In this document: piece by piece, positions 10,936 to 59,901 of the stretch
Numbering within the stretch: the stretch's first letter is position 1
Layout: every line of letters starts with the position of its first letter
Origin: Candidatus Aenigmatarchaeota archaeon
GTDB lineage: Archaea; Aenigmatarchaeota; Aenigmatarchaeia; GW2011-AR5
Direction of reading: 5' to 3'
Length of the DNA: 64,000 bases
NCBI GenBank assembly: GCA_016187335.1
Contig: JACPJW010000001.1
Span: 480,001 to 544,000 of the forward strand
The notes under the pieces: generated by a model
Databases searched by the model: none
Told to the model about the DNA's origin: nothing
What the model saw: the letters and a program-made list of their open reading frames with translations, nothing else
Position numbers and translations under genes: made by a program

Positions 10936-10944
10936 TGATCATGA

Positions 10945-11729: not shown

Positions 11730-11854
11730 AGCCACCGGAGGGAATTGAACCCCCAACCTATTGCTAGTTCTTTTGGGGTATGCAAAGACCTTTTCTTTCA
11801 AGAAAAGGGATTTGCTTACGAAGCAATCGCTCTGCCAGGTTGAGCTACGGTGGC
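11730..11854 (-). tRNA. tRNA-Thr(CGT) with 51-nt non-canonical intron at the 3' side of the anticodon stem
   Basis: GCCACCG/CGGTGGC acceptor, GCTC/GAGC D-stem, ATTGC-TTCGTAA-GCAAT after removing 11765..11815; intron flanked by a GCAA repeat. Confidence 0.88.
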
Positions 11855-33857: not shown

Positions 33858-33864
33858 GAATTTG

Positions 33865-34170
33865 TCAATATCCCAGTTCTCTCAAAATTTTTCCTGCAGC
33901 TTCATCAGACGTGAACCCATGTGAATTTTCAATCAGCCTGCCGTTTGACCCTTCATAAGTGATAGAAAAGCCATCATAGATTCGCTCTATGGTAACTTCT
34001 TCTTCAGGCTTCCCGTCCCTATTTCTCGTAAACGTAGTCCCCAGCCTGTTCTCTCTTCCCGGAACCCGTTTCTCAGCAAGTGAACTTCCAAGTTTCCCAG
34101 CGGCGTTTTTACCACCTTTCTCCAAAATCGTTTTGATTGAACTTTTTGAAAAGTTCACCTGATTAATGGC
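33865..34170 (-). CDS. Possible hypothetical protein (start uncertain)
   Basis: 3' part of ORF 33865..34323 fills the gap; no clear ATG outside the upstream gene. Confidence 0.35.
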   Translation of the reverse strand, partial: AINQVNFSKSSIKTILEKGGKNAAGKLGSSLAEKRVPGRENRLGTTFTRNRDGKPEEEVTIERIYDGFSITYEGSNGRLIENSHGFTSDEAAGKILRELGY

Positions 34171-34172
34171 AA

Positions 34173-34802
34173 TCAGCAGAGTCTTTCGTAACTGGAGCAC
34201 AATATCTGCTGGACTTTTTCCCTTGTCTGCAGGCCTTCGTATTTCGTTCCGTTTATTACTATGGCAGGCGTGGCGTTGACCTGGTAGTTTGCCATGAGAA
34301 GCCTTATGATAGGCTCCTCCCACTCCCTGTTGAAGGCAAATACGCTTATGCTTTCGTTTGAGCGGTAAACAAGGTAGTCAAGGACCCTTCCCTGTTCCCT
34401 CGATATTTCCGATTCATCAAAGAAAAATATGACGCGGGGGGTTGTTATGTTGCACTGCTCTTCCTGGACTTCCGAGAAGAACCAGTACCTCATCAGCGAT
34501 ATTACGTACTGTTTCTGCAGCGTTTTCGCTTCTTCCTTGGGGATGTCGCCGATGTCAAATTTCCTCCCCAGATCGACCTTTCTTTTTATGACGTCCGGCA
34601 GCCTGTAGCCTATGTAGTCGCAGGCATTCGTGTTTTTTATCAGCGACAATTCCAGTTCAAGGCTCTGGAAATCAAGGAGGTCATTCTGCAAAGTCCTCTG
34701 TATTTCCTCTGTTCTTGAGGCTGTTATTTTTGAGCCTATGAAAAGCCCCGAGACGAAAACCAGCGAAGTTATCAGGAACGCAATAAGGTATTTCTTATCC
34801 AT
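34173..34802 (-). CDS. Membrane-anchored thioredoxin-fold-like protein (no CxxC)
   Basis: N-terminal TM; YQVNATPAIVINGTKYEGL C-terminal motif. Confidence 0.7.
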   Translation of the reverse strand: MDKKYLIAFLITSLVFVSGLFIGSKITASRTEEIQRTLQNDLLDFQSLELELSLIKNTNACDYIGYRLPDVIKRKVDLGRKFDIGDIPKEEAKTLQKQYVISLMRYWFFSEVQEEQCNITTPRVIFFFDESEISREQGRVLDYLVYRSNESISVFAFNREWEEPIIRLLMANYQVNATPAIVINGTKYEGLQTREKVQQILCSSYERLC

Positions 34803-44007: not shown

Positions 44008-45024
44008 ATGGGAATACAGATGACAAGCCTCGTCGAGGGCGAGGAAGCAACTATAGAGCAGTTCTTTGACAAGAAAATAGCCGTGGACGCTTACAACTGG
44101 ATTTACCAGTTTCTGAGCATTATCAGGCAGCCCGACGGCGAGCCCCTGAAGGACAGCAGGGGCAGGATTACTTCCCATCTGTCCGGACTGTTTTACAGGA
44201 CGATGAAGCTGATGGAAGCCGGCATAAAGCCCATATACGTTTTTGACGGCAAGCCTCCTGAGTTTAAGCGGGCTACGGCAGACCAGCGCCGTGACGTGCG
44301 GGCGGAAGCAGCGCGCGAATGGGAAGAGGCGCTGAAAAGAAAGGATTACGAGGCGGCGAGAAAATACGCGCAGCGCGCTGTCACCATAACCGGCGAAATC
44401 GTGGAGCAGTCAAAACGGCTTCTGGAGGCGATGGGCCTGCCGGCAGTGCAGGCGCCCAGCGAGGGGGAAGCTCTGTGCTCGCTTATGTGCAGGCGCAGCG
44501 ATGTGTACGCCGTCGCGACGCAGGACTACGATTCCCTGCTGTTCGGCGCAACTCGCCTTGTCCGCAACCTGTCAATTACAGGAAAGAAAAAGCGCGGCTC
44601 GGAATACATAACAATAAACCCGGAAATGCTCGTCCTGAATAAGGTGCTGGAGCAGTTGGAAATCACACAGGACCAGCTTATATTATTAGGCATCCTTATT
44701 GGCACGGACTACAACCCGGGCGGCGTTCCCGGCTACGGACCGAAAAAAGCACTGGAGCTTGTCAGGGAAAAGAAAACGCTGCATGCCGTGAAGGAAAGCG
44801 TCATCTGGGATTTTGACGTCGACATGGAGGATATCTTCGCTTTTTTCAAGAAGCCAGAGGATGCTGACTACGACATAACCTTCGGCAAACTCAGCGAGGA
44901 AAAAATCGTAAAGATGCTCTGCGACGAGCACGACTTCAGCGAGGAAAGAATCGTAAACGCCTTGAAGAAGTACAAAGAATCAAAAGGCGAAGGCCAGCGC
45001 TCGCTGGGCGGTTGGGTGAAATAG
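44008..45024 (+). CDS. fen: Flap endonuclease 1
   Basis: IAVDAYNWIYQFL, TSHLSGLFYRT, YVFDGKPP, QAPSEGEA, TQDYDSLLFG, GTDYNPGGVPGYGPKKA, PIP-box QRSLGGW. Confidence 0.97.
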   Translation: MGIQMTSLVEGEEATIEQFFDKKIAVDAYNWIYQFLSIIRQPDGEPLKDSRGRITSHLSGLFYRTMKLMEAGIKPIYVFDGKPPEFKRATADQRRDVRAEAAREWEEALKRKDYEAARKYAQRAVTITGEIVEQSKRLLEAMGLPAVQAPSEGEALCSLMCRRSDVYAVATQDYDSLLFGATRLVRNLSITGKKKRGSEYITINPEMLVLNKVLEQLEITQDQLILLGILIGTDYNPGGVPGYGPKKALELVREKKTLHAVKESVIWDFDVDMEDIFAFFKKPEDADYDITFGKLSEEKIVKMLCDEHDFSEERIVNALKKYKESKGEGQRSLGGWVK

Positions 45025-45170: not shown

Positions 45171-45503
45171 TCAGACCGGGCAGCCGCATCCTCTCAGGCA
45201 GGCATCTTGCAATTCAGCGCCTGTAACGCCAGGGTATTTTTGCCCGCATATAACATCTAACCTTGTTGTTTCTCCGGGAGCTTTGTAATCCTTGACCTCT
45301 ACGTCATCTATCTTGGTTCTATCGCAGCTGTAAGCGCTCCTCAATGTCTGGCAGCCTTTTCCATAAGCCTGCTCCATCTGGATTGTTCCTGCGCCTGCGC
45401 CGAACTGGCTGCTGAACAAAGCCGCCGCCACAACAAGAACGAGCACGGCTATGGCCACGATGACTATGACATTGATAGGAAGTTCCAGCCCTTTTGAAGC
45501 CAT
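45171..45503 (-). CDS. Pilin-like protein with class III signal peptide
   Basis: MASKG|LELPINVIVIVAIAVLVLVV; C-terminal Cys pairs. Confidence 0.85.
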   Translation of the reverse strand: MASKGLELPINVIVIVAIAVLVLVVAAALFSSQFGAGAGTIQMEQAYGKGCQTLRSAYSCDRTKIDDVEVKDYKAPGETTRLDVICGQKYPGVTGAELQDACLRGCGCPV

Positions 45504-45578: not shown

Positions 45579-45905
45579 TTATTTATTTTCCGCCTTCGGC
45601 AAGGGCTGCGGGCAGAAAAGGCTGCAGCAGGTCTGGACGCACTCTTTGCCTCCCTGGGTTTTGCATTTTTCATAGTTAAGCTTGGTGCATAGCCTGACAA
45701 GCTCGGTTTCAGCGCCTTTGGTGCATTCTATGTCGTTGTTCACGTGCTTGATGCACAGGTCCCTCTGCTTGTTGAGGTCGTCGATGCTGCTTTCCGCCGG
45801 CCGGAAATTGGCATTGAAAAAGTAAAGAAGCACTGTCAGCACAAGAACTGATAGCGTAAGGACAACAATCGTTTCCAGGGTCAGCGAAACGCCTTTCCTT
45901 CGCAT
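45579..45905 (-). CDS. Pilin-like protein with class III signal peptide
   Basis: MRRKG|VSLTLETIVVLTLSVLVL; Cys-rich C-terminus. Confidence 0.85.
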   Translation of the reverse strand: MRRKGVSLTLETIVVLTLSVLVLTVLLYFFNANFRPAESSIDDLNKQRDLCIKHVNNDIECTKGAETELVRLCTKLNYEKCKTQGGKECVQTCCSLFCPQPLPKAENK

Positions 45906-46028
45906 GATTATTATTTTGGTTTCCGATATATAAACAAAATCCACCATCTAAAAAATCACAAAACTCATAAATGCGGCAGAATCGGGCTTGCCTTTACTTT
46001 AACTTCTGCTTTGAGATTTATTGCTTGC

Positions 46029-47960
46029 TCATTCAGGCTCCGAGGTTTTTTCGCCGCAGACGTAATCGCCGATTTTTTCTCCTAAAGGCATTTTTCTCGC
46101 TGCGCCGCTCAGGGACGCGCCGCCCGCTCTGCACACGCTTTCATCCATTCCCGGAATATCAGCATTTCCGCACGTGTAAAGGCATCCCTGGTAGCATACA
46201 AGGTCCGCGGTGCTGCCTTTGTCCCAGTGGTAGAACCTGTACTGCAGGACGCGCACGGCGTTGCTGACGCCTTCCGTATAAGCTGGATGCACCCTCGTGC
46301 AGTCTATCGCAGGCAGATAATCTTCAGCGTTGAATTCCAGCGTGAACGGCCTTCTTAAAAATTCTTTTTTCGCTTCGTCAAAATAGTAATAGTTCCCGCC
46401 GGAGAAGGCCGCAATTGCCGAAGGCGGCTTGACATTCGGGGAGCCTGTGGTAGGTTCTGAAGAGCATGTTTTTTGCGTTGATGCGCCGCAGTCGTCCGTA
46501 TAGAGAACGCATGGGTTCACCGTGCCTTTGTCTATGGCATCGCTTGCATCACGCATCTCAAAATGAAGGTGCGGTCCCGTTCCTTCCCCGGTGCTCCCGG
46601 TCTTCGCTATTTCTTCGCCGGCAGTTACTTTTTCTTTTCTTTTGAATACCAAGTCGTTGTTTATGCTGCTCAGGTGCATGTACCACGTATAATAAGTCTC
46701 TCCGCCGAAGTCATGCCTTATCCTCATGCATACGCCGCCGCCTCCGCATGCATTGGGATTTATGTTGACGAAATCCACGGTGCCGTCAGCCGCGGCGTAT
46801 ACAGGTTCGCCCGTGTTCGCGCCTATGTCAATGCCGCCGTGAAAGTCCTGATTCCCGTTAAGTGTCCTGGTGCCAAAGCAGCTTGTAATCGCGTGGCTTT
46901 TTGTCGGCCATTTGAGAAATCCGGAGCTTGCAGAACCGCCTTCTGTTATCTTCACGTTCGCGTCGTAGTGCAGGTAAAGGCCTGCTCCTGCCGGCAGGAC
47001 GCCGCTTTCCGTCGGGACAATCAATTCCGGCCTTGTCCTGTAGTTCACGTTGATGACGGCTTTCTCAAGGTTGCCGGGATTTCTCAGCAGCAGTATATCG
47101 AGCAGCCCGTCCTTGTTGCTGTTGGTGAATTTTTTCAGATAATCGTCAGCGCTTTGTGTTGCTGCAATTCCAACGAAACGCGGAGCCCAGTCGTCCTGAT
47201 ACCTGAATTCATGCCTGTAAAGCTCGTTGCTGCCTGAGGACAGCTTCTCCGTGAAGCTGACGGAAAGTCCCAGAAGCAGTTTGGTTATCGCCTCCGCTGA
47301 AAGCCGCATCCTCTTGAATTCCGTTTCAACGAGGAACTTGTTTTCCAGCGGCCCGTAGGTGCACACAGCATTTTCGCAGCTGCCGGCGGATACGATGACG
47401 TCATGTTTCATCAGACCTTCAATGCCCTTGTCCGTTGCGGTTATTTTTGGATTCACGTTCTTTATTTCAATCGTCAGGCCGTTTGCCTCAAATTTTCGGA
47501 AATTTCCAAGCGAAATCATCTTTGCTTTCAGATAGCTGCTAAGCTGTTCATCATCCGGAATGCACGTCATCGGGTTGCCGCTGCCGTACAAACCCTTGGG
47601 CAAAAGTGATTCGTACAATTCCTGGCCTGACGACGCTGCAGTGCTTTTTTCTATTGCAGCATCCGTCTGCAGCCAGTACTTCTCCTTGAACCCTGCGGGC
47701 CTTCCGCCCTGAAGCCCGCAGCCTATCGCTTCGTCGCCTGTCTGGAAAACGCTTTGTATGGTTGAGACGGTCCAGGTGTTTCTCAGTGATTTCTGCAGAA
47801 GCGTGAACGTGTCGGATGTTTTTATTATCTGCAAAGAATCAAGGACCATTTTTTCCTGGCGCGCGCTGCCTGCTATTGCGTCCTCGTTCACTACAAACGT
47901 TAGAACAAGGACTATTCCGGTCATTATAATCAGCCCGTAAGTCATTGCAGCGCCTTTCAC
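46029..47960 (-). CDS. Pilin-like protein carrying an M23 metallopeptidase domain
   Basis: MKG|AAMTYGLIIM N-terminus; WP...ITSCFG.R, FHGGIDIG, VYAAADGTV, YMHLS, VTAGEEIAKTGSTG.GTGPHLHFE. Confidence 0.92.
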   Translation of the reverse strand: MKGAAMTYGLIIMTGIVLVLTFVVNEDAIAGSARQEKMVLDSLQIIKTSDTFTLLQKSLRNTWTVSTIQSVFQTGDEAIGCGLQGGRPAGFKEKYWLQTDAAIEKSTAASSGQELYESLLPKGLYGSGNPMTCIPDDEQLSSYLKAKMISLGNFRKFEANGLTIEIKNVNPKITATDKGIEGLMKHDVIVSAGSCENAVCTYGPLENKFLVETEFKRMRLSAEAITKLLLGLSVSFTEKLSSGSNELYRHEFRYQDDWAPRFVGIAATQSADDYLKKFTNSNKDGLLDILLLRNPGNLEKAVINVNYRTRPELIVPTESGVLPAGAGLYLHYDANVKITEGGSASSGFLKWPTKSHAITSCFGTRTLNGNQDFHGGIDIGANTGEPVYAAADGTVDFVNINPNACGGGGVCMRIRHDFGGETYYTWYMHLSSINNDLVFKRKEKVTAGEEIAKTGSTGEGTGPHLHFEMRDASDAIDKGTVNPCVLYTDDCGASTQKTCSSEPTTGSPNVKPPSAIAAFSGGNYYYFDEAKKEFLRRPFTLEFNAEDYLPAIDCTRVHPAYTEGVSNAVRVLQYRFYHWDKGSTADLVCYQGCLYTCGNADIPGMDESVCRAGGASLSGAARKMPLGEKIGDYVCGEKTSEPE

Positions 47961-49294
47961 TATTTGTCACCAACAGTCACTATGATTTTAGGAACATCTT
48001 TCGCTGTTTTCTCGCCGAAATTGCATTCCTCGCCTGTCGGTTCAATCGGCGGCGAGGTTTTTACCTTTCTCAAATCAGCTGTCACGCAGCACTGGTATGT
48101 GTTGCCTCTGGAAGCAGGGCAGTCTTTTGATATCTCGTGGTCTTTCACGCCGATAGATTCGCACTTCTGCACGTCAAGGCAGAATCCGCTCTTGCCTGTG
48201 GTTGTCGTGCATTTTATTGTCTGCGTCACGCAGCACAGATTTGCCGCGTCATTGCAAAAGCCGCGCGCAAGTTCGCCGCTGCACAAAGATTGCTTTGTTT
48301 TGGGGTCAGTGATTTTAGGGTCAACGCAGTAAAAAACCGGCGCGCCTTCCTTTGTTCTGTAAAGCAGCGGCACTTCAGCGGAGACAAGCGCTCCCAGTTC
48401 GGCAATGCCGACTTTGTCAGCAGGCGCGCAGCATGTTGTCGCGTCAAATGAAAAGGTTTTCCCGCCGCCCGGCAAGGGCACATTAACAACAGGCAGTTTT
48501 TCCGGCACGGTAATCCTTTTGCCCTTGCATTCGTTGGAGCCTTGCGGTATTTCTATCCTTCCTTCGCTGCAGAAATAATCGCACACACCAAGATCATTCG
48601 CGCCGCATCTTGCGACTGAAGGCTTGTCCGGCGGCGGGTTGTTGTAATCGCCGTTTTCTTTCACATCTTCCTTGCAGCACGCGGTGTTCAGATTGACAAG
48701 GCTTTTTTTCGTGTCAAGGAAATTGAACAAAGGGCATTTGCCTTCTGCTGAAATTTCAATTCTTCCGACGCCGCAGGGCGCTGCCGGCGTGGGATTGTTT
48801 ATCGGGTCAAGCTGCGGCGTTGAGCAGAATCCCTCGTCTTTCGCGCCGCATCGCCTTCCGTTCTTGTCAAGCTCGTATGTTACGGCTTCCCCGGAAATTA
48901 TTTTTACATTGTAATATTCTAAAGGCAGACCACTCAGATAATTCCTTATCGCGTAGTCAAGCTTGTCCCTGTCGCTTGCAGGCATTTTTCCTGTAATTGC
49001 TGACTGCAAAGCTATTTCAGCAATTGTCCGCTCGTCAGGCTTCAGCAGCATCATGATGTGCGCAATGGAATAAGGGTCCTTTGAAAGAAGGATAATTTCA
49101 TAGCTCCGCGACGACCTCGGGTCCGCGCCTGCTATCGCAAGGATAGTTTTCATGACAAGGGTTAATATGATCATAATGATTCCTATGAAAACAATAAGCA
49201 GTACGCCGACAGGCTCTATCTGCCCCTTGAAGGATTTCCGGATTTTCCCTGTTTTGTTTTTCCCTGATTTATAGTGATTTTTCATAAACATCAC
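47960..49294 (-). CDS. Pilin-like protein with four Cys-rich repeats
   Basis: FKG|QIEPVGVLLIV; repeated C..G.C...C...C...CC units. Confidence 0.8.
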   Translation of the reverse strand: MMFMKNHYKSGKNKTGKIRKSFKGQIEPVGVLLIVFIGIIMIILTLVMKTILAIAGADPRSSRSYEIILLSKDPYSIAHIMMLLKPDERTIAEIALQSAITGKMPASDRDKLDYAIRNYLSGLPLEYYNVKIISGEAVTYELDKNGRRCGAKDEGFCSTPQLDPINNPTPAAPCGVGRIEISAEGKCPLFNFLDTKKSLVNLNTACCKEDVKENGDYNNPPPDKPSVARCGANDLGVCDYFCSEGRIEIPQGSNECKGKRITVPEKLPVVNVPLPGGGKTFSFDATTCCAPADKVGIAELGALVSAEVPLLYRTKEGAPVFYCVDPKITDPKTKQSLCSGELARGFCNDAANLCCVTQTIKCTTTTGKSGFCLDVQKCESIGVKDHEISKDCPASRGNTYQCCVTADLRKVKTSPPIEPTGEECNFGEKTAKDVPKIIVTVGDK

Positions 49295-49300: not shown

Positions 49301-50185
49301 TTAGCCGGCACTGCCCGATGTTCCCGGCGGGGCTTCGTTCTTTTCTATGCATAATAACACCGAGCCGACTTCATCGCTCACACCTGCTATCGCATCTTTG
49401 ACTAGGTTCCCACACTCCGCATTTGCTCCGGGCTTTATGGGATAAGCAGCCAGAATTAATTCCTTTTCACTCTTGTCAAGGCCGCCGGAAAAGGAATAAG
49501 AAACAGGCACGCCCTTGTAAAACCTGCATTCGCTGAAAGGCAGGCTCGGATGCTTTAAGCACAGCATATTATTGCCGTTGTCGTAAGTTAGGACGAAGTA
49601 GCACGTAACAGATTTTTCCGGCTGGGGGTCGCCGGATAAATATGCATCCGACCGCGGGGTTTTGCAGTTTAACTTTTCTATTTTTTTCAAAACCTGCGCC
49701 CTTTCAACGATGCACTGGACATCGCTCAGCGTGTCTTCATAAATCCTCAGGGTGAGCCTTGCAGGCTTCTCGTCAACGCTCACCGGAAATGTGGCTGTGT
49801 ATTCGTAGAGAAATCCAAGCCCGAGCCTGTTTATCGCACCTCTGAGCAGGGTTGTTTTTGGCTTGAATCCAAAACTCCATTCTTTGCCGTCGCTTTCTAT
49901 TTCCGCGCCATAGGCAAGGCTGCAGTGACGGACGAAAGGCTCTTCCAATTTCCCGTTGACATTGTCCAGCTCTGCTGACGAGAAAACAGACTTTGAAGCT
50001 GTCAGCGGCGATACGAAAAGGTTTTCAGATATTTCCACCGCAGCTCTGGGCGCCTGTTTTGAATATATGGTGGGCTCAAACGGGAACATAAGGAAAAACA
50101 CAATGGCTATTATCGCTATTTCGAATATCACGAAAATTACCCAGAAGAACGTGTTTATCTGCAATGATACTTCTTCTTCTGCCAT
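49301..50185 (-). CDS. Pilin-locus membrane-anchored protein
   Basis: N-terminal hydrophobic helix; co-oriented within the operon. Confidence 0.7.
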   Translation of the reverse strand: MAEEEVSLQINTFFWVIFVIFEIAIIAIVFFLMFPFEPTIYSKQAPRAAVEISENLFVSPLTASKSVFSSAELDNVNGKLEEPFVRHCSLAYGAEIESDGKEWSFGFKPKTTLLRGAINRLGLGFLYEYTATFPVSVDEKPARLTLRIYEDTLSDVQCIVERAQVLKKIEKLNCKTPRSDAYLSGDPQPEKSVTCYFVLTYDNGNNMLCLKHPSLPFSECRFYKGVPVSYSFSGGLDKSEKELILAAYPIKPGANAECGNLVKDAIAGVSDEVGSVLLCIEKNEAPPGTSGSAG

Positions 50186-50186: not shown

Positions 50187-50681
50187 CTATCCCCTTATAC
50201 AGTCGTTGACCGGCTCAAAAATGTTTATTGCGCTTTTGGTTTTGACAAAGCAAAATGTCTTCCTCATGTTTTCTGAACATTCAAAATTTATTTTTTTTAT
50301 TTTCATACCTGTCTGCAAAATGTCCGATTTGTACTGCCGGCCCTCAGATTCGTACAAAACGTACATCTGGTTTATTTCTATCCTGCACTTTCCCTGCACT
50401 GTGCGGAACATGGCGTGTGTTGTCTCCGGAGCGGATTGCAGGATGTTTATTATGCTTGCGAGCTGCTCCGCCTGCGTGAATGAAGCCCTTTCCACAGCGA
50501 TTTTTGTCGCATTTTTCCACATGCTGAACCCGAAAAAGAAAAGAAGCAGGACGATTACCAGGAAAGGCACAAAGCCGTATTCCTGGCCTTTCCTGCGGCA
50601 AAATTTTTTTTCCCCTGCGTGGTTTTTCTTTTTAATCAGAAACACAAAATCCCCTTTTAGTTTTAGCCGGGCCATTTCCAT
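50187..50681 (-). CDS. Pilin-like protein with class III signal peptide
   Basis: RRKG|QEYGFVPFLVIVLLL. Confidence 0.75.
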   Translation of the reverse strand: MEMARLKLKGDFVFLIKKKNHAGEKKFCRRKGQEYGFVPFLVIVLLLFFFGFSMWKNATKIAVERASFTQAEQLASIINILQSAPETTHAMFRTVQGKCRIEINQMYVLYESEGRQYKSDILQTGMKIKKINFECSENMRKTFCFVKTKSAINIFEPVNDCIRG

Positions 50682-52276
50682 TCAAAGCCTAATATTTCTT
50701 TCACTGAAGACGGGCTGAAAGGCGTTTTCGTTATGGGCTTTACATGTATTGTGTTCTTGTCAAGGAATTCCGTGTTGTCAACAACGACTGTCAGGTCAAG
50801 CTCCCATGAAATGTCATTATAGAACCAGGACCTCCACTGCTCCCTGTAGGCGTTTTTCGTCCAGCAAAAGCCTTCCGGAGGGTCTTGTATCGTTATCTGC
50901 AGGCATTTCCCTGTCGGCGCATCATCCGGTTTTACGTCGTTTTTTCCGGCAGGGCCGAGGCCTTCAACGCACTGGTAATGCGTGCCAACCTCCTGAACCT
51001 TTTTTCCGCTATCGTCAACGAAAACGTTGTATATCGGGTATTTGAGCCAGCGCTCGCATTTGTCGGGGCCCGAGCCTTTGAGCGCGCTGCAGTCTTTTTT
51101 TTCTATCAGTATCGTTTTGTCAATATTGCATGGAGATGCAATATAGAAATCCGATGTCTTCACGCCTGCAAATGCGGTGACTATAAGGCCTGAAAATTCG
51201 CGCAGGCCCCTGTAAGCTATATTGGTTACCGCCGCTCCGAATATAGCATCTATAAAAGGTATTTTTCCCAAATATTTGAAAATGAATTTCAGAAATCCCG
51301 CGCTCTTGAGGACAACTTTTCCTACAATTGTTTTTTCAAGAACCGTCCCAAGGGCAGCTATTCCGCCTGCTTTTACAATAGCCACACCAACTGCTGCAGT
51401 ACCCGCTGTTGTAGCGACAAGAAATCCGGCTGTCTGAAGTTTTCTTGCGTCAGAAGCGACATAATTCAGGTGCACGTACTGTATGTCACCGCACGCGGAG
51501 CTCAGCGGTATGCGCGTTACGGCTTCCGGTGTTTTCAGGCAGAGCGACCTCACGCCGCACGGCCTGTATTTAATGAAAGACTTCTGCTCATTGCTCATGC
51601 TCAGGTCAAGGCGGAAAACATCCGGCTGGCCTAATGGGTTATGATAAATCCATTCCCCCGCGTTACCTTTCTTGTACTCAACCTTGCCTATGGTCGGCAG
51701 GACCGGCTTTGCCTCCGATGTCGGCATGATGTTGACGTAATCGCTGAGCATTATGTTCGGAATCACGACAGATATTTTTTCCCTTTGAAGCTGTAGTTTT
51801 CCTTCGGCAATACTTTTCAGGACAGTTTCGTACCTGCTGTTCTGCCCTGCGTAAAGCTGCCTTTCAAAATTGGTTGCGTCCTTCAGGCCCTCTGAATCGG
51901 CGGTAAACGGTGCGAAGACCCTATGGCCGATAGAATTGCCCTGGTAAACCTCCCATCCCAGGCCTTCGCCTATAGGGAACGCCTCGTAGTAAAGAAGGAA
52001 ATCAGGGTCGCCAAGACCTTTTATCCTGTAAGCTGCTAGGGCATTTACAACAATTATTTTCGCAGGCCTTACCTGCGGGAATGAAAATCCCTCAAGCTCA
52101 GCCCTCTCTTTTATGCAAGCCTCGTGAATTTTTGAGCGCAGCAGCTCCGTGTTCAGCCTTGCGACCTGTTCGTTGGAAGGTATGGTTGACAGGAAGTAAA
52201 GAAAAGCGCCTGCCATTATGGCTATCAGAATCATCTGCATTACAAGATATACCGGTTCTGAAAACCCCTTTGTCAT
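50663..52276 (-). CDS. Large pilin-like protein
   Basis: MTKG|FSEPVYLVMQMILIA; internal Gly/Ala-rich hydrophobic segment. Confidence 0.75.
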   Translation of the reverse strand: MTKGFSEPVYLVMQMILIAIMAGAFLYFLSTIPSNEQVARLNTELLRSKIHEACIKERAELEGFSFPQVRPAKIIVVNALAAYRIKGLGDPDFLLYYEAFPIGEGLGWEVYQGNSIGHRVFAPFTADSEGLKDATNFERQLYAGQNSRYETVLKSIAEGKLQLQREKISVVIPNIMLSDYVNIMPTSEAKPVLPTIGKVEYKKGNAGEWIYHNPLGQPDVFRLDLSMSNEQKSFIKYRPCGVRSLCLKTPEAVTRIPLSSACGDIQYVHLNYVASDARKLQTAGFLVATTAGTAAVGVAIVKAGGIAALGTVLEKTIVGKVVLKSAGFLKFIFKYLGKIPFIDAIFGAAVTNIAYRGLREFSGLIVTAFAGVKTSDFYIASPCNIDKTILIEKKDCSALKGSGPDKCERWLKYPIYNVFVDDSGKKVQEVGTHYQCVEGLGPAGKNDVKPDDAPTGKCLQITIQDPPEGFCWTKNAYREQWRSWFYNDISWELDLTVVVDNTEFLDKNTIHVKPITKTPFSPSSVKEILGFEWKWPG

Positions 52277-52686: not shown

Positions 52687-53298
52687 TCAGCCGCTGCATT
52701 TCATGACCCTGCCTGTCATGAAAAACGACCTCATTATGATCCAGCCGCAGGAATCCGTGAACTCTTTAAGCGTCACTCCTTTCTTCGCAAGCGCATCGCA
52801 GCCTTTGTCGGGGTTTATGAACCCGAAAACGAATGTTTCCTCGTCTTTCAGGCCTATGGAATTGAGGTCCTCTTCCTTTGCCGGGGGCGCAGTGAACCTT
52901 CTTGATGTTATAGTCTTTGTATTCGTATCCGGGGATATCTCAATAGTATATTCTCCTGTTTCCTGATTGCCGCCTATGTAGCCGGCAACAACAACTCCCT
53001 TCATCAGGAAAAACATGTTCGCCTTCACCTTTTCTTTGTATTCAAACCCTACGTTGTCAAGAATGATTTTCTTCTCGTCGGAGCAGACCTTAACCTTTTT
53101 TGCAAGGTCTTCAGGCCTGTCGGTGATTTGTATTTCCTTGTCAACGCCTGCAAATTTTATGTTTTTTGCCGTGTTGCTTGAAGTCAGCAGGACGTGGTAA
53201 ATTATCAGCAGGACAATTACCATTACTATTACTTTCAAAGCGTAATCAAAGGCGACCATGATATTAACTGTGCTTTCTGTATAATAAGTTTTCCTCAA
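52687..53298 (-). CDS. Pilin-locus membrane-anchored protein
   Basis: N-terminal TM; start may be ATG 53259. Confidence 0.7.
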   Translation of the reverse strand: MRKTYYTESTVNIMVAFDYALKVIVMVIVLLIIYHVLLTSSNTAKNIKFAGVDKEIQITDRPEDLAKKVKVCSDEKKIILDNVGFEYKEKVKANMFFLMKGVVVAGYIGGNQETGEYTIEISPDTNTKTITSRRFTAPPAKEEDLNSIGLKDEETFVFGFINPDKGCDALAKKGVTLKEFTDSCGWIIMRSFFMTGRVMKCSG

Positions 53299-54656: not shown

Positions 54657-56609
54657 CTACCCGGTTATCACCACGAGCGGCGCGAATATCTGCAGCGTCA
54701 CGAAAAGCGATATCACGAAAACCAGGAACGATACCCACATGATATGGCCGCGGTTGTAGTCACGCCCAATGGGGTCCTGGCCGCTTTCTATGCCGTTTAT
54801 GAATGACGAAAGTATGAAGGACGTTTCCAGCAGGTATATGCCTACGATGAGGATGAACTCAAAAGGCGTTATATTTATCTGGCTGAACTGGCTGAGCAGG
54901 TTGGGCCCGAGCGTTGGCGATATGCCCTGAAGCCTGGTCTGCAGCTGGTTCAGTATCTGGATTATAATCATCGCCATCGTGACAATGACGCCGGAAATGA
55001 ACGGCGAGAGGAAGTACGCCTGGAATTTCAATGAGCTCACTGTCTCGTTGAAGGATTCCCGGACCTCTTCCTGCGTCTGGTGTATTCCCTTGAGGTAAGC
55101 AGAAATAGAAAGCATCGCCGCGGAAACCGTCTGCACGCCCCTTTTTGCTGACTCAACCGCGACGCGCATGACTGTTTTTATCATCTTGGAAGGATAGTAG
55201 CGCGTCGCGCCGTATTCCTTGTCGAAGAACGAATCGGAAAATGTCATGCCGAGGTTTTTCATGTTCTTCAGCGCATGGATGAACAGCTGCTTTATCGTGA
55301 GGTTCTCCATTTTCTTTACTGACCGCTCCAGGGACACTTCCAAAGGAACTCCCACGGATATATGGTTTCCTATCTGGAACAAAGCTTCAGAGAATTCCTG
55401 CTCTATTGCCCTGGTCTCGTTCCTTATTTTTATGCGGATTTTTGAAAGAAGTATGTAGTAGACAGCGAACCCAAGGAAAAGCCCGCCAAGGAGCAGAACG
55501 GGCGAGAGGACGCTTGCCGTGCCCTCGACAACGTACACGGCAAAGCCAAGGTAGCTGATGACAAAGACAACCAGCAGCGCCACGGGCCACGCAGGGAAAT
55601 AATTGTTGCCATGAAGGCGGAACTTGCCTTTAGGCGGGGCCTCGGGGTTCTCGGAAATGTCTATCTTGCTGAACGTTGCGGGTCTTGTTTCAAGTATGCT
55701 GTTTATCACGAAAATAAGGATTAGCGGCAGTATTATGTCGTAGCCTATGAAAAGAAATATAGACTTGACGCCGAGGAATATGGATATTATCGGGAAAAGC
55801 ACGAGTCCGAGGATAGGCAGGATAATGCCCAGGGCATGGACAACCATCACGGGCATCTTCAGATTCTGGTTGAAGTGGCGCGCGTTCTCCCTGTTGCCGT
55901 TCAGTATGACGTTGATGGCCTCGTCAAGCATTATCAGCCTTCTCTCGCCCGGCTGCTCTAGGGAAGCTATCAGTATTTCCAGGGATTCAACGAATTCCCT
56001 GTTGTTCTCCCACTTCTTGGCGTAGTCAAGCAGCGCGTCCTGTATGTTGAGGTAGTTTCCGATTTCTACGTCCCATAGCAGCTTTCTTATTTCGTAAGAA
56101 AGGCTGCCGGTAAGGTTTTCAGAGGCGAATTTCACAGCGCCCTCAAGGTTGGGCGTGTTTCTCATGTGCATGGACATGTAAAGGATGAACGAAACGATTT
56201 CGGAGCCTGCGTCGATTTCGTATACCTTTTTCAGGTGGAATGGATAGTTGTACAGGTAGTAAACCAGGAGCATCGTCAGAAAAAGGATTATCATGCCGAT
56301 GCCGAAAGACAGCCCGTGGTACCCAGCAATATCAAGCCCGAAAACATTGACAGTGAGCAGCGCCAGCACGATAACAGAAACAAACAGCCCGATGCCCATG
56401 GGCATTGACGAAACGTCGTCCGGCGTCACCTTGAGATGGGAAAAATCAATGGCCTTTTGCAGTTTTTCGCGCGTTTTCTTGTCCGGAGAAATTTTCAGCG
56501 TTTTGCCGAAAAACCTGCATATCTTCTCGTAGAAAGTCCGCGGCAATGACGCTATTCTTTCTTCCTCGCGGAATATCCTGTACTGCCGCGACACGGGAAT
56601 GTCAGGCAT
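54657..56609 (-). CDS. Type IV pilus platform protein (TadC/PilC/T2SSF-like)
   Basis: Two T2SSF-like halves (TPNLEGAVKFA..; EFSEALFQIGNHISVGVPLE) separated by TM bundles. Confidence 0.85.
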   Translation of the reverse strand: MPDIPVSRQYRIFREEERIASLPRTFYEKICRFFGKTLKISPDKKTREKLQKAIDFSHLKVTPDDVSSMPMGIGLFVSVIVLALLTVNVFGLDIAGYHGLSFGIGMIILFLTMLLVYYLYNYPFHLKKVYEIDAGSEIVSFILYMSMHMRNTPNLEGAVKFASENLTGSLSYEIRKLLWDVEIGNYLNIQDALLDYAKKWENNREFVESLEILIASLEQPGERRLIMLDEAINVILNGNRENARHFNQNLKMPVMVVHALGIILPILGLVLFPIISIFLGVKSIFLFIGYDIILPLILIFVINSILETRPATFSKIDISENPEAPPKGKFRLHGNNYFPAWPVALLVVFVISYLGFAVYVVEGTASVLSPVLLLGGLFLGFAVYYILLSKIRIKIRNETRAIEQEFSEALFQIGNHISVGVPLEVSLERSVKKMENLTIKQLFIHALKNMKNLGMTFSDSFFDKEYGATRYYPSKMIKTVMRVAVESAKRGVQTVSAAMLSISAYLKGIHQTQEEVRESFNETVSSLKFQAYFLSPFISGVIVTMAMIIIQILNQLQTRLQGISPTLGPNLLSQFSQINITPFEFILIVGIYLLETSFILSSFINGIESGQDPIGRDYNRGHIMWVSFLVFVISLFVTLQIFAPLVVITG

Positions 56610-56684: not shown

Positions 56685-57275
56685 ATGAAAATCATCCTCG
56701 CGACGGCATCGCCTTACCGCAAGCGCGCGTTCGCCGCGCTTGGAATTCCTTTCACGGCCGAAGGAAGCGGTGTCGAAGAAGACTTTGAAGGCAGGCCCGG
56801 GAACCCCGAAGAGCTTGTTCTTGTCCTGGCAAAGAAAAAGGCAGAAGCTGTTGCCAAAAATCACAGGGAAGGGATAGTCATAGGTTTTGATTCCGTCGGC
56901 TTGTTCGAAGGAGCGGTTCTCGAAAAGCCGGAATCTGAAGAGGAGCTTTTTGAGCGTCTGAAAGACCTTTCAGGAAAAAGCCACGAGTTCATAACAGGCG
57001 TCCACATGATAAACGTTTCTTCGGGCAGATTTTTGTCAAAGGCCGTGAAGACAAAGGCTTTCTTCAGGGTTCTGAAAGACGAAGAAATAAAAAAATACAT
57101 CAGCGAAGACCCTGACTACGGCACCTTTGCCGTTGGCTACGACCCGTGGAACCACATAAGCTCCAGCTTCGCTGAGCGCATTGAAGGCAGCTATCACAAT
57201 CTCATAAGCGGGGTGCCGTTGGAAGCGATAGTGGAAATGCTTTATGAAATGGGATTCAGGTTAACCAAGAATTAA
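56685..57275 (+). CDS. maf: Maf-family nucleoside triphosphate pyrophosphatase
   Basis: IILATASPYRK, LAKKKA, IGFDSV, LEKP, LSGKSHE..TGV, IEGSYHNL.SGVP. Confidence 0.9.
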   Translation: MKIILATASPYRKRAFAALGIPFTAEGSGVEEDFEGRPGNPEELVLVLAKKKAEAVAKNHREGIVIGFDSVGLFEGAVLEKPESEEELFERLKDLSGKSHEFITGVHMINVSSGRFLSKAVKTKAFFRVLKDEEIKKYISEDPDYGTFAVGYDPWNHISSSFAERIEGSYHNLISGVPLEAIVEMLYEMGFRLTKN

Positions 57276-57681: not shown

Positions 57682-59901
57682 TCAAAACCTGTTCTTGAGC
57701 CAGCCCTGCCATTTCTCATAAATCAGAGCGCTGTCCAGTTCGCCTGTTTCCTCTTTTACTTCGCTGCTGATTATGTGGAACATTGAGTTGCTCTCGATGA
57801 CCGTAGGCGCTTCCAGGACCTCAGGGCCTTTTGCTTTTGAATAATCCGTGAGCGTCTTCAGTATGTTCGCGCGCAGCTGGATGTTGCTCCAGATGGAGTC
57901 CCAGTTTCCTTTCCACTCGCGGACGCGCGACGCTATGTCATTTAGAACAACGCTTTCGCCTGTCAGCAGCGTTGATGTGGGCTTCAGCACATCGTCTTTG
58001 GCAGAATACTCCAGCAGGTTGACGAATCCTCCTTCATCCGCAGGGTCGCTTTTCCAGTGCTTTCTCACTTCCGTAAGCTCAACAACCCTGCGGAACGCGT
58101 GCAGGCCGTCGGGCGACCTCAGCATGTTGGCAATGACGATGAGGTCAGTCGCCTTGAAGCTTGTAGGCGGCACGCCCAGGTCGTTAACAACCCTGTCGAA
58201 GACGCCGTAGGCGGATTCGCCATGGATAGTGCCGGCAACTACGTTTGCCAAAGCGCCGATTCTCATTGCTTCGTATAATGCCAGCGCTTCGCGCGAGCGG
58301 ACCTCGCCGACGATGAGCGCGGAATCGCCCAAGCGCAGCGCGGTACGCAGCGCTTCTTCTGCCGGCAATTCCGTTTCCACGCGCGTGATGACAGAACGGG
58401 ATTTCAGCCGCTCGATATTGTATTCAAGTGCGCGCATCTGCTCAACAGGGAGCTCCAAGGTGTCTTCAACCGTGACAATCCTGATCTTCGGCATTATCTG
58501 GACCATGCATGCGCCCAGAAAACTGCTTTTTCCGCTGCTGCGCGTGCCTGCAATCAGCATCGTCCTCGCGCCGTCAATCAGGAACCACAAAAGTCCCGCG
58601 GAGAAAGGGTCAATCATCTTGTTTTGAATGAATAATGGAAATGTCCACGGCTTGTCCCTGTGGCGTCGCAGCGCGAAGCCCAGGCCGTCAGGCGACAGCG
58701 AACGCGTTATAGCCGCGACCCTTGCGCGTCCGCCCGGTACGCTGAGTTCCGTGTCAAGAACGGGATTCGCCTCGTCCAAAGGCCGTCCGGAAAGCAGGCG
58801 GAAGCGCGTTGCCCATGACTCGGCGTCCTCCATGCTGGGAACGATGTTCGTCTCGCACTCCTCGTAAACGCCGTGAAAAACATATATGGGCGAATAGCCC
58901 ACGGGCGAATTCACGGAAATGTCCTGGATGTTCTCGTCCTCAAGGATAAGCTCTATGGTCCCCAATCCCGCCGTGTACCTTGTCAGTATGTCGGCAAGTT
59001 CCTGCAGCCTTTTTTCGGAAATTTCTATTTTATTTACCTTTGACAGATCGCGGAGCATGTCCAGCCCTATCCTGAATAAATTCTCTCTCAGCCTGTGGGG
59101 ATCCTGCAGTTCAACCTCTCTCGGCTCGTGCCTGCCTATGTATCGCCGTGCATTGTCCAGCAATGTATACTCTTCCTCGGCCAGTCGGAATTCCGGCGGA
59201 ATGAGATGGTAAAGTTTGCGCGTTTTTCCATGCATCTGGTATATCTCGACAATGCTGTCGCCGACAGCATAGCGCTCAACCAGTTCGGCGTCAGCAGGCG
59301 GCAGCGTCATGTAGTGCGTATACATGAAGTTCGGCCGCACGGTGGGGTGGAAAAACTTTCTGTACAATGAGCGGTTCTTGTGTTCCGCTAAGTGCGGCTT
59401 CGCTTTCTGGATCAGCAGGCAGCTGTCCAGCAGTTTCTCTATGGGAAGCAGTGCGCTGTTAAGGTAGTGCTGCAGGCAGCTGCGCTTCAGGTCGTCGTAT
59501 TCCCGCTGCGCCCTCACGCTTGTGTGCCTGATCTCCCTCAGCAGTTGCTTGTAGGCTTCTATGGGGTCGTAGCGCATCTCGGCAACAAATTTCTGCAGGA
59601 ACTCGTAGCGCGGCGCCGCGTCGTCCTCGCACCCCCGTATGACGACGTTCTTGATGCTTATTACTTCCTTCATGGTGCGTTCCAGCGCCAGGGCAATTTC
59701 CAGCAGCATCTTGGATTCGCTGAAGTCGTATTCATGCTCCCGCGTGTCCGCAAGAACAATCCTGACTGATTTTTTTATCTCCATGAGCTTGTCTATTGTC
59801 GCGGCCATCCATACCGGATAGTCCTCTATGCTGGCGCCGTAAACGCTCTTCAGGACGTTCATCCTTATGCGCTGGTTCTCCTCGTCATATTCATACGCCA
59901 T
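57682..59901 (-). CDS. Type II/IV secretion (PilB/CpaF/VirB11-like) ATPase with long N-terminal extension
   Basis: QDISVN, Walker A GTRSSGKSS, VEDTLEL, Walker B LIVGEVR, GTIHG. Confidence 0.93.
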   Translation of the reverse strand: MAYEYDEENQRIRMNVLKSVYGASIEDYPVWMAATIDKLMEIKKSVRIVLADTREHEYDFSESKMLLEIALALERTMKEVISIKNVVIRGCEDDAAPRYEFLQKFVAEMRYDPIEAYKQLLREIRHTSVRAQREYDDLKRSCLQHYLNSALLPIEKLLDSCLLIQKAKPHLAEHKNRSLYRKFFHPTVRPNFMYTHYMTLPPADAELVERYAVGDSIVEIYQMHGKTRKLYHLIPPEFRLAEEEYTLLDNARRYIGRHEPREVELQDPHRLRENLFRIGLDMLRDLSKVNKIEISEKRLQELADILTRYTAGLGTIELILEDENIQDISVNSPVGYSPIYVFHGVYEECETNIVPSMEDAESWATRFRLLSGRPLDEANPVLDTELSVPGGRARVAAITRSLSPDGLGFALRRHRDKPWTFPLFIQNKMIDPFSAGLLWFLIDGARTMLIAGTRSSGKSSFLGACMVQIMPKIRIVTVEDTLELPVEQMRALEYNIERLKSRSVITRVETELPAEEALRTALRLGDSALIVGEVRSREALALYEAMRIGALANVVAGTIHGESAYGVFDRVVNDLGVPPTSFKATDLIVIANMLRSPDGLHAFRRVVELTEVRKHWKSDPADEGGFVNLLEYSAKDDVLKPTSTLLTGESVVLNDIASRVREWKGNWDSIWSNIQLRANILKTLTDYSKAKGPEVLEAPTVIESNSMFHIISSEVKEETGELDSALIYEKWQGWLKNRF

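What the first reader, a model, noticed from the sequence alone, without database searches (positions are those of the whole stretch)
46029..47960. Pilin-like protein fused to an intact M23 peptidase: a candidate pilus-delivered cell-wall hydrolase in an archaeon
Seen: an MKG|hydrophobic N-terminus and a complete M23 Zn site (HGGID, YMHL, HLHF at about 46555..46915), encoded within the pilus operon. Established: M23/LytM enzymes cleave peptidoglycan peptide cross-links; archaea do not make bacterial peptidoglycan, and this cell encodes an S-layer. Inference: a pilus-tip enzyme aimed at another organism's wall, implying contact-dependent attack on, or attachment to, bacteria (or wall-bearing archaea) by a DPANN-like cell. 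This is the strongest candidate novel system in the window.
Basis: partly seen in the sequence, partly recalled or inferred. Interest (0 to 1): 0.78.

Follow-up and report, generated by a model that had tools for sequence, protein, structure and literature searches.

The report
Archaeal pilin-like protein carrying murein peptidase
A tiny groundwater archaeon (Aenigmatarchaeota, DPANN) with no detectable wall-building genes carries an intact bacterial-cell-wall-cutting enzyme inside a pilus-subunit-like protein of a conserved pilus operon, and its relatives swap other wall-cutting enzymes into the same slot, which points to a surface device for docking onto or breaching bacteria.

Summary
ORF 46029..47960 (-) encodes 643 aa. 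It has a KG|hydrophobic class III-type N-terminus and a predicted 73-residue N-terminal helix followed by a beta-sheet head. Its M23 domain has all five catalytic and zinc residues.

The gene sits in a type IV pilus-like operon (ATPase, platform protein, seven larger pilin-like proteins, two small pilins). This synteny is conserved in about 18 relatives.

The new point is that the protein is not a one-off fusion. It belongs to a small family confined to one order of Aenigmatarchaeota (131 cluster representatives among 1.84 billion proteins). Conserved N- and C-terminal scaffold parts flank a variable cassette. Every murein-unrelated Pfam hit among 94 representatives was a single weak one; the recurrent domains are all murein hydrolases: M23 42, SLT 38, and amidases, CHAP, VanY, glucosaminidase and NlpC/P60. 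The cassette changed at least 23 times on the scaffold tree.

No Mur ligase or PBP transpeptidase was found in the 91%-complete genome, and a prepilin peptidase is present. The target is therefore most likely bacterial peptidoglycan.

Processing, mounting on the pilus, tip position and enzyme activity remain untested.

This scan has found the same kind of system before in other DPANN genomes. I found no paper describing it.

The parts
46029..47960 (-). Gene X: a 643-aa modular pilin-like protein carrying an M23 peptidase (stop codon included)
   Evidence: ORF. Pfam M23. Orthologues occupy the same operon slot in about 18 loci.
47952..47960 (-). Predicted 3-residue class III leader, M-K-G, with cleavage expected after G3
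   Evidence: K2 and G3 are invariant in 17 orthologues. The motif recurs across family representatives. The GTG start overlaps the upstream TAG, and GGTGA lies 6 nt upstream.
47733..47951 (-). Hydrophobic stretch plus a long N-terminal alpha-helix (residues 4-76), pilin alpha-1-like
   Evidence: The AF2 models place a helix at 4-76 (full length) and 3-77 (N-domain alone), with pLDDT 69-95 in this stretch.
46941..47960 (-). Conserved N-terminal scaffold domain (residues 1-340): helix plus beta-sheet head
   Evidence: Alignment A3. The profile finds 131 representatives among 1.84e9 proteins. VIA-align hit to GspK, Z 7.0 (weak).
46485..46928 (-). M23 (LytM/lysostaphin-type) metallopeptidase cassette, residues 345-492, with H374, D378, H429, H464 and H466 intact
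   Evidence: Pfam, NCBIfam MepM/ShyA-like, motifs, Foldseek hits to DipM/LytM/lysostaphin at E down to 5e-10. Low-pLDDT linkers at 342-347 and 493-521 flank it.
46032..46403 (-). Conserved Cys-rich C-terminal scaffold domain (residues 520-643)
   Evidence: It matches orthologues whether or not they carry a cassette. C554 and C597 are invariant. No Pfam family and no informative atlas hit.
47960..49294 (-). p444: a Cys-rich pilin-like protein (FKG|QIEPVG...), translationally coupled to X
   Evidence: ORF. Conserved neighbour. Alignment A6.
49301..50185 (-). p294: a conserved operon protein with an N-terminal hydrophobic helix
50187..50681 (-). p164: a pilin-like protein (RKG|QEYGFVP...)
50663..52276 (-). 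p537: a large pilin-like protein (TKG|FSEPVY...)
52687..53298 (-). p203: an operon protein with an N-terminal hydrophobic helix
53295..54299 (-). p334: a pilin-like protein (RAG|LGMTVAVV...)
54657..56609 (-). Platform membrane protein (T2SSF/TadC-like), 650 aa
   Evidence: Pfam T2SSF, 27.1 bits against a cut-off of 25.2. 50-60% identical in relatives.
57682..59901 (-). Type IV pilus/secretion ATPase (T2SSE family), 739 aa
   Evidence: Pfam T2SSE, E 1.4e-16. Conserved in relatives.
45579..45947 (-). p122: a small pilin (RKG|VSLTLETIVV...)
45171..45503 (-). p110: a small pilin and candidate major subunit (SKG|LELPINVIVIV...)

Best explanation
Gene X encodes a modular, pilin-like subunit of a type IV pilus-like apparatus in an Aenigmatarchaeota (DPANN) cell. 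The proposed sequence of events is as follows. The protein is inserted in the membrane by its N-terminal hydrophobic helix. The genome's A24 prepilin peptidase removes the M-K-G leader. The protein is then assembled, with the six other larger pilin-like proteins of the operon, into or onto the filament built from the small pilins p110 and p122. It most likely joins the priming (tip) complex. Its scaffold has a conserved N-terminal pilin-like domain and a conserved Cys-rich C-terminal domain. Between flexible linkers, the scaffold displays an intact M23 zinc endopeptidase. On contact with a bacterial cell, this enzyme cuts peptide cross-links of peptidoglycan. That would loosen the wall locally so the archaeon can attach closely, penetrate, or lyse and feed. 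Relatives have exchanged this cassette for SLT lytic transglycosylase, amidases, CHAP, VanY or glucosaminidase, or combinations of them, presumably tracking different bacterial wall types. Shown computationally: the domain content, the intact catalytic residues, the conserved KG motif, the operon linkage, the cassette swapping, and the lack of detectable own murein genes. Inferred: leader cleavage, incorporation in the filament, tip position, enzymatic activity, and the bacterial partner.
For: The M23 domain scores 87.9 bits, with H374/D378/H429/H464/H466 intact. Its fold matches DipM, LytM and lysostaphin. K2 and G3 are invariant, followed by about 21 hydrophobic residues, in 17 orthologues and across the family representatives. 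AF2 predicts a helix at 4-76 and then a beta-sheet head. The synteny ATPase-platform-p334-p537-p164-p294-p444-X-p122-p110-FEN1 is conserved in about 18 loci from several families of the order. In those loci M23 and SLT hits fall in slot X only, with one weak exception. Slot X carries M23, SLT+M23, SLT, SLT+Amidase_3+M23, Glucosaminidase+M23+Amidase_3, or nothing. Over 94 representatives, the recurrent Pfam hits are all murein hydrolases, and the few unrelated hits are single and weak. The scaffold tree needs at least 23 cassette changes. A prepilin peptidase, PF01478, is present in the genome. No Mur_ligase_M or PBP transpeptidase was found in the 90.8%-complete genome. SLT occurs in 86 of 301 genomes sampled from the phylum.
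Against: There is no experimental or expression evidence. The leader would be only 3 residues long. The family consensus, KG-x-G-x-T, has Gly at +2, which departs from the usual archaeal class III pattern (from my memory of FlaFind, not tested). The N-domain has no significant Foldseek match to any pilin. The GspK and XcpW matches (Z 7.0 and 5.8) lie in the range the tool itself calls common. Archaeal class III signal peptides also occur on non-pilin surface proteins such as the Sulfolobus sugar-binding proteins (established knowledge), so the motif alone does not prove filament incorporation. No cell-wall-binding domain was found in X or in the genome (PG_binding_1).
Confidence: 0.55

Rival explanations
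1. X is a surface-anchored or released murein hydrolase that is not part of a filament. In this reading the class III-type N-terminus and the pilus-like machinery serve only for export, anchoring or display, like a bindosome or a type II secretion pseudopilus. The enzyme would be used to digest bacterial wall debris for nutrients, or as a bacteriocin-like weapon.
For: Archaeal class III signals occur on non-pilin surface proteins (established knowledge: Sulfolobus bindosome substrates). Secreted archaeal peptidoglycan hydrolases do kill bacteria (PMC12352652). Murein hydrolase modules in this lineage also sit on another, non-pilin scaffold, a giant Cys-rich protein. There is no significant structural match to pilins.
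Against: The hydrolase cassette is tied to one slot of the pilus operon in about 18 genomes. The scaffold keeps a 73-residue N-terminal helix plus a beta head, as pilins do. The gene is translationally coupled to another pilin-like gene.
Confidence: 0.25
2. The M23 module is a non-catalytic peptidoglycan-binding adhesin, like the degenerate LytM domains of EnvC and NlpD. It would hold the pilus to bacterial walls without cutting them.
For: Many LytM domains are binders or activators rather than enzymes (established knowledge; EnvC and NlpD appear among the NCBIfam and Foldseek hits). A few orthologues have substitutions in the HxH motif (L022 N-I-H, L036 H-L-D).
Against: All five catalytic and zinc residues are intact in the window protein and in most M23-bearing orthologues. 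The co-occurring cassettes (SLT, amidases, CHAP, VanY) are catalytic families.
Confidence: 0.07
3. The enzyme remodels the producer's own envelope so the pilus can pass, as VirB1, FlgJ and other machine-associated lytic enzymes do in bacteria.
For: Specialised murein hydrolases are often encoded inside operons of trans-envelope machines in bacteria (established knowledge).
Against: No Mur ligase, PBP transpeptidase or SLT was found in the 90.8%-complete genome. Archaea of this kind are not known to make murein. Orthologues without any cassette keep the rest of the operon.
Confidence: 0.03
4. The target is the pseudomurein wall of methanogenic archaea rather than bacterial murein.
For: All cultivated DPANN so far have archaeal hosts (abstract of PMC11291902). 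An M23 peptidase alone could in principle cut a peptide bridge.
Against: The same slot carries SLT, MurNAc-L-Ala amidases (Amidase_2 and Amidase_3) and glucosaminidase. The substrates of these enzymes (MurNAc, beta-1,4 glycan, D-amino-acid stems) are absent from pseudomurein (established knowledge). The M23 domain's nearest relatives are bacterial wall enzymes.
Confidence: 0.03
5. The gene is a bacterial contaminant or a mis-binned fragment.
For: The M23 domain's best outside hits are bacterial, such as Paenibacillus at 39-48% identity over about 130 residues.
Against: The gene lies on a contig of at least 544 kb, between archaeal genes (FEN1 at 44008..45024). It keeps the same neighbours in about 18 genomes from independent studies. 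The scaffold domains are found only in this archaeal order.
Confidence: 0.01

Closest known systems
Bacterial modular type IV pilins (Streptococcus sanguinis PilB with a vWA module and PilC with a lectin module; Raynaud et al. 2021, PMC8179133)
   Same: Both have a class III signal peptide and a pilin module carrying a grafted functional module. Both are unusually large, are encoded in the pilus locus, and are proposed to sit at the filament tip. That paper reports more than 1,200 such bacterial proteins in 264 architectures.
   Different: The protein here is archaeal, with a KG-type leader rather than the bacterial N-methylation motif. The module is inserted between two conserved scaffold parts instead of appended at the C-terminus. 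The cargo is an enzyme that cuts another organism's wall, and it is swapped among several murein hydrolase families. The paper's text does not mention archaea or murein hydrolases.
GspK, the large tip minor pseudopilin of the type II secretion system (GspK-GspI-GspJ complex, PDB 3ci0)
   Same: Both are large minor pilin-type subunits with an extra domain inserted in the pilin fold, capping a filament together with smaller minor pilins. GspK is the best non-trivial structural match of the N-domain: Z 7.0, rmsd 2.8 A, 93 residues.
   Different: The match is weak and within the range the tool calls common. There is no sequence similarity. GspK's insert is not an enzyme.
Large extracellular lytic murein transglycosylases of Woesearchaeota (AR20 genome of Castelle et al. 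2015, as cited by Vigneron et al. 2022, PMC9723730)
   Same: These are DPANN archaea without their own murein that encode bacterial-type wall hydrolases, read as a sign of attack on bacteria.
   Different: Those reports concern GH23/SLT enzymes in another phylum. They do not link the enzymes to pilins or pilus operons; 'pili' and 'pilus' occur 0 times in that paper. Here the enzyme is M23 and sits in a pilin-like scaffold.
Archaeal modular peptidoglycan hydrolases that kill bacteria (Woldo and Danwoldo of Halogranum salarium; Strock et al. 2025, PMC12352652)
   Same: Both are archaeal proteins with an M23 catalytic domain of bacterial origin aimed at bacterial peptidoglycan. That paper notes M23 homologues in four Nanoarchaeia genomes.
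   Different: Those proteins are secreted enzymes with PG_binding_1 cell-wall-binding domains. X has no detectable wall-binding domain. It carries a pilin-like scaffold and operon context instead, and the paper does not mention pili.
Type IV pili of episymbiotic Patescibacteria (Saccharibacteria TM7; PMC9894109, PMC11623550)
   Same: These are ultrasmall, genome-reduced epibionts that use type IV pili to find and hold bacterial hosts (titles and abstracts).
   Different: The system is bacterial. I did not check whether its pilins carry hydrolases. The likeness is in lifestyle, not in shown homology.

Membership tests
Peptidase family M23 (LytM/lysostaphin-type zinc endopeptidases) | Match to the family profile above the curated threshold | tested here: met
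   PF01551: 87.9 bits against a cut-off of 28.7, E 5.2e-25, profile positions 2-95 of 96.
Peptidase family M23 (LytM/lysostaphin-type zinc endopeptidases) | HxxxD and HxH zinc and catalytic motifs, plus the central catalytic His | tested here: met
   H374-G-G-I-D378, H429 (YMHL) and H464-L-H466 are all present, and are conserved in most M23-bearing orthologues.
Peptidase family M23 (LytM/lysostaphin-type zinc endopeptidases) | M23 beta-sheet core fold | tested here: met
   Foldseek of the AF2 model hits DipM LytM (E 5.4e-10, TMt 0.75), EnpA (TMt 0.77-0.79), lysostaphin and LytM. This is a predicted structure only.
Peptidase family M23 (LytM/lysostaphin-type zinc endopeptidases) | Hydrolysis of peptidoglycan peptide bridges | not testable with these tools
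   Needs an enzyme assay.
Archaeal type IV pilins (class III signal peptide proteins) | N-terminal [K/R]-[G/A] cleavage motif followed by about 20 hydrophobic residues | tested here: met
   M-K-G|AAMTYGLIIMTGIVLVLTFVV. K2 and G3 are invariant in 17 orthologues and recur in most family representatives. This depends on the GTG start, which one search supports.
Archaeal type IV pilins (class III signal peptide proteins) | Long N-terminal alpha-helix protruding from a beta-sheet head (lollipop fold) | tested here: inconclusive
   AF2 predicts a helix at 4-76 and then antiparallel strands. Foldseek finds no pilin at E<=0.001. The VIA-align hits to GspK (Z 7.0) and XcpW (Z 5.8) are weak.
Archaeal type IV pilins (class III signal peptide proteins) | Encoded with a type IV pilus ATPase and platform protein | tested here: met
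   T2SSE and T2SSF genes lie in the same co-oriented cluster. The linkage is conserved in relatives.
Archaeal type IV pilins (class III signal peptide proteins) | A cognate prepilin peptidase is present in the genome | tested here: met
   PF01478, 31.5 bits against a cut-off of 26.5, at G000:C2:106781-107086 in a 267-aa open frame. It lies outside the window.
Archaeal type IV pilins (class III signal peptide proteins) | Leader cleavage and incorporation into a filament | not testable with these tools
   Needs biochemistry or imaging.
Modular type IV pilins (sensu Raynaud et al. 2021) | A pilin module joined by short linkers to a separate functional module | tested here: met
   Low-confidence linkers at 342-347 and 493-521 flank the M23 domain. 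Cassette-free orthologues join the N and C parts directly. The difference is that the module is inserted, not terminal.
Machine-associated autolysins (VirB1/FlgJ-type, acting on the producer's own wall) | The producer has a peptidoglycan wall that the machine must cross | tested here: not met
   No Mur_ligase_M, PBP transpeptidase or SLT was found in the 90.8%-complete genome.
Archaeal modular peptidoglycan hydrolases (Strock et al. 2025: catalytic domain plus cell-wall-binding domain) | A recognisable cell-wall-binding domain (PG_binding_1, LysM, SH3 or similar) beside the catalytic domain | tested here: not met
   M23 is the only Pfam family found in X. PG_binding_1 was not found anywhere in the genome. 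LysM and SH3 were not searched genome-wide.

The most novel reading that the evidence does not exclude
This order of Aenigmatarchaeota lives as epibionts or predators of bacteria, not of archaea. Its type IV pilus carries, on a dedicated minor-pilin scaffold in the tip complex, a swappable murein-hydrolase 'drill head'. The enzyme composition (endopeptidase, lytic transglycosylase, amidase and others) is exchanged between lineages, and with a second giant surface scaffold, to match the wall chemistry of the bacterial host. That would amount to a host-range cassette for a cross-domain symbiosis.
Probability: 0.3. Interest if true: 0.85.

Novelty: new variant of a known kind. Interest (0 to 1): 0.66.

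Why it matters
Every cultivated DPANN archaeon so far depends on an archaeal host. The partners of most DPANN lineages, Aenigmatarchaeota included, are unknown. A murein-cutting enzyme built into a pilin-like subunit of a lineage-wide pilus operon gives that question a concrete, testable molecular handle. It is one gene that can be expressed and assayed on defined sacculi. It is also an antigen to localise on cells, and a cassette whose type could be correlated with co-occurring bacteria. In addition, it extends the modular-pilin idea from bacteria to archaea and from binding modules to wall-degrading enzymes. Finally, it shows that database start-codon choices hide the pilin signal in these proteins.

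Tried and rejected
1. Complex prediction of X(31-338) with the upstream pilin-like p444(56-444) returned no answer: score 0.00, controls not run. This is not evidence either way.

2. Foldseek of the N-domain model against PDB gave nothing at E<=0.001. The top rows were actin-capping proteins and phosphatases with rmsd above 20 A, which is noise.

3. A profile search of the N-domain against PDB sequences gave only two chance hits at E about 0.5.

4. hhalign of the N-domain (A3) against p444 (A6) found no homology beyond a 23-column stretch at 46% probability.

5. The protein-atlas search on the C-domain gave no usable feature hit, and structure rows had TM of 0.33 or less. On the N-domain it returned only unnamed archaeal clusters.

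6. The search for related loci with the full-length family alignment failed for lack of a conserved stretch. It was redone with the platform protein, but a 10-kb flank reached slot X in only 13 of 61 loci.

8. Pfam and NCBIfam found no family for the other eight pilin-like operon proteins.

9. I considered and rejected own-wall remodelling, a pseudomurein target and contamination (see rivals).

10. Literature searches for pilin-linked murein hydrolases in DPANN or Aenigmatarchaeota found no description. The library does not hold all journals.
Full report
**What is there.** The minus-strand ORF 46029..47960 encodes 643 residues from a GTG start, inside a 645-codon open frame.
- Pfam finds one family, Peptidase_M23: E 5.2e-25, 87.9 bits against a cut-off of 28.7, residues 373-477.
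- NCBIfam places the domain nearest to murein DD-endopeptidases (MepM, ShyA, DipM), but far below their equivalog cut-offs.
- The five residues that define an active M23 enzyme are all present: H374 and D378 (HGGID), H429 (YMHL), and H464 and H466 (HLHF).
- In an AlphaFold2 model (mean pLDDT 76.6), this part matches solved M23 domains of DipM, EnpA, LytM and lysostaphin. Foldseek E values go down to 5e-10, and target-normalised TM is 0.72-0.86 for single-domain targets.

**The N-terminus.** Gene callers started the database entry at the ATG six codons later (P0001, 638 aa). I favour the GTG for three reasons:
- It overlaps the TAG stop of the upstream gene by one base.
- GGTGA lies six bases upstream.
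- In an alignment of 17 orthologous N-terminal domains, K2 and G3 are invariant and are followed by about 20 hydrophobic residues. The same [K/R]G motif heads most of the roughly 90 longer family representatives listed.

The metagenomic homologue P0002 was also called too short. Extending its frame upstream gives ...GRKG|IGITISSILIII. The AF2 models predict one long helix (residues 4-76) followed by antiparallel strands. That is the general shape of a type IV pilin.

Structural searches with the N-domain alone were weak:
- Foldseek found nothing significant.
- The wider VIA-align search ranked the tip pseudopilin GspK second (Z 7.0, rmsd 2.8 A, 93 residues) and the minor pseudopilin XcpW at Z 5.8. 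The tool itself warns this range is common.

I therefore treat the fold as pilin-like but unproven.

**Context.** The gene lies in a co-oriented cluster:
- a T2SSE-family ATPase (57682..59901);
- a T2SSF/TadC-like platform protein (54657..56609);
- six further proteins of 164-537 aa, most with KG- or AG-type leaders;
- then X, and then two small pilins of 122 and 110 aa.

A prepilin peptidase (PF01478, above its cut-off) is encoded elsewhere in the genome. Record titles of related loci identify the lineage as Candidatus Aenigmatarchaeota, a DPANN phylum, mostly from groundwater and including GW2011_AR5. The genome is 1.01 Mb in two contigs and 90.8% complete.

**The comparative result that changes the picture.** I fetched the homologous regions of 18 relatives. 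The order ATPase, platform, p334, p537, p164, p294, p444, X, p122, p110, FEN1 is conserved across several families of the order.

Protein X always keeps an N-terminal domain (window residues 1-340) and a Cys-rich C-terminal domain (about 520-620). What lies between them differs:

| Cassette in slot X | Examples |
|---|---|
| M23 alone | this genome, G017, G006, G019 and the metagenome contig L004 |
| SLT + M23 | G021, G008, G022, G027 |
| SLT alone | G020, G011, G012 (G016 has only a sub-threshold SLT hit) |
| SLT + Amidase_3 + M23 | G028 |
| Glucosaminidase + M23 + Amidase_3 | G034 |
| nothing | G015 (471 aa), G003 (520 aa) |

So the M23 domain is a cassette in a fixed slot of a conserved scaffold, not a one-off fusion. 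Within these loci, home-made M23 and SLT profiles hit slot X only, apart from one weak SLT hit.

**Family-wide survey.**
- A profile of the N-domain searched against 1.84 billion cluster representatives found only 131 proteins, 78 of them at E<1e-30.
- I scanned the 94 representatives of 400 aa or more against Pfam. The counts were M23 42, SLT 38, SLT_2 3, Amidase_2 5, Amidase_3 1, CHAP 2, VanY 1, Glucosaminidase 1, NlpC/P60 1, Lysozyme_like 4 and M15_4 1.
- No family unrelated to murein recurred. The only other hits were single weak ones.
- About a third have neither M23 nor SLT. Roughly half of those are short, cassette-free forms. Some carry other hydrolases, and some have inserts with no Pfam match.
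- On a tree of the N-domain (70 rows, quick method, many weak forks), the cassette state needs at least 23 changes where 5 is the minimum. It differs even between close relatives, such as P0133 (SLT) and P0142 (SLT+M23).
- In a sample of 301 genomes of the phylum, the scaffold was found in 38. All 38 are in the window's order, and 28 of 33 genomes of its family have it.
- SLT domains as such are more widespread, in 86 of 301 genomes, and often sit on other large proteins.

**Whose wall?**
- In the window's genome I found no Mur ligase, no PBP transpeptidase, no SLT, no Amidase_2, no glucosaminidase and no PG_binding_1. The caveat is 91% completeness.
- An own murein or pseudomurein wall is therefore unlikely, which removes the VirB1/FlgJ-type reading (digging through the producer's own wall).
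- The sister cassettes are lytic transglycosylases and MurNAc-L-alanine amidases. These act on structures that pseudomurein lacks (established knowledge). The family's common target is therefore bacterial peptidoglycan.
- The nearest outside relatives of the M23 domain are bacterial, for example Paenibacillus at 39-48% identity over about 130 residues. This fits acquisition from bacteria.

**Most likely mechanism.** I take X to be a modular minor-pilin-like subunit. It would be membrane-inserted by its helix, trimmed after G3 by the A24 peptidase, and assembled with the other large pilin-like proteins at the start (tip) of a filament made of p110 and p122. The M23 module would sit on flexible linkers; the model has low confidence at 342-347 and 493-521. 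On contact, the enzyme would cut peptide cross-links in a bacterial sacculus and so permit close attachment, penetration or lysis.

The steps from processing onwards are inference. My attempt to test one contact (X with p444) gave no answer.

The main rival, which I put at about one in four, is that the pilin-like N-terminus only exports or anchors the enzyme. The enzyme would then act as a surface or released hydrolase for feeding or competition, as shown for haloarchaeal M23 enzymes (PMC12352652).

**Relation to what is known.**
- Modular pilins that carry a grafted functional module are established in bacteria (PMC8179133).
- DPANN type IV pilus loci with unrecognisable pilins have been noted (PMC6393860).
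- 'Large lytic murein transglycosylases' of Woesearchaeota have been read as signs of attack on bacteria (PMC9723730).
- Archaeal peptidoglycan hydrolases that kill bacteria have been demonstrated (PMC12352652).

None of the papers I could search links murein hydrolases to pilin-like scaffolds or pilus operons in archaea. I therefore rate this a new variant of known kinds.

Within this scan, the same kind of system has already been reported from other Aenigmatarchaeota and Woesearchaeota genomes. I reached my reading before seeing those notes, and it agrees with them.

**Limits.** All evidence is computational.
- There are no expression data.
- The leader would be very short, at three residues.
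- The pilin fold is not confirmed by a significant structural match.
- Some cassette-free representatives may be truncated gene calls on short contigs.
- The tree was built with the quick method and has many unsupported forks.

Noticed in passing
window 47940-47960 (-); L004:3463-3649: Database gene calls start X at the ATG of codon 6, and start its metagenome homologue P0002 inside the helix. This removes the KG class III motif, so automated surveys of archaeal pilins would miss this family.
   Followed up: yes
L021:45-6086 (G001, same genus); G000:C2:466555-470178 (outside the window, about 10-13 kb upstream of it): A sister species has a 2013-aa Cys-rich protein with Glucosaminidase + M23, and its M23 is 52% identical to X's. 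The orthologue in this genome (a 1494-aa frame) matches on both sides but lacks that hydrolase segment. SLT hits in frames of 1400-2000 aa in other relatives (G015, G003, G006, G017, G157) may belong to the same second scaffold. Hydrolase modules seem to move between surface scaffolds.
   Followed up: partly
L003:889-2001 (-) = G000:C2, around 33340-34452: A second exported M23-like protein of 370 aa. Its N-terminus looks like a twin-arginine signal (TRREVVK...), and its HxH motif appears degenerate (VLHF).
   Followed up: no
L002:1381-2055 (-) = G000:C2, around 120371-121045: A third M23-like protein of 224 aa with no signal peptide, so probably cytoplasmic. Its role is unknown.
   Followed up: no
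window 47960-49294 (-): p444 and its orthologues share a conserved pattern of invariant cysteines (C149, C157, C174, C187, C206-C207, C230, C238, C242, C256, C288-C289). Some carry an optional extra Cys-rich C-terminal extension, present here and in four of 15 relatives.
   Followed up: partly
L035:8738-11998 (G004): The 1086-aa slot-X orthologue has no Pfam hit. It nevertheless aligns to the M23 region with a degenerate first motif (T-G-I-D) and retained Y-T-H-L and H-V-H. It may be a diverged or inactivated M23.
   Followed up: no
window 11730-11854 (-), 5937-6006 (+), 10892-10953 (-): Rfam finds three tRNA genes, one spanning 125 nt and so probably intron-containing. ARAGORN reports only one odd tRNA, at 5920-6007.
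   Followed up: no
window 56685-57275 (+): A Maf-like gene lies on the opposite strand between the ATPase block and the platform gene, so it interrupts the otherwise co-oriented pilus cluster.
   Followed up: no
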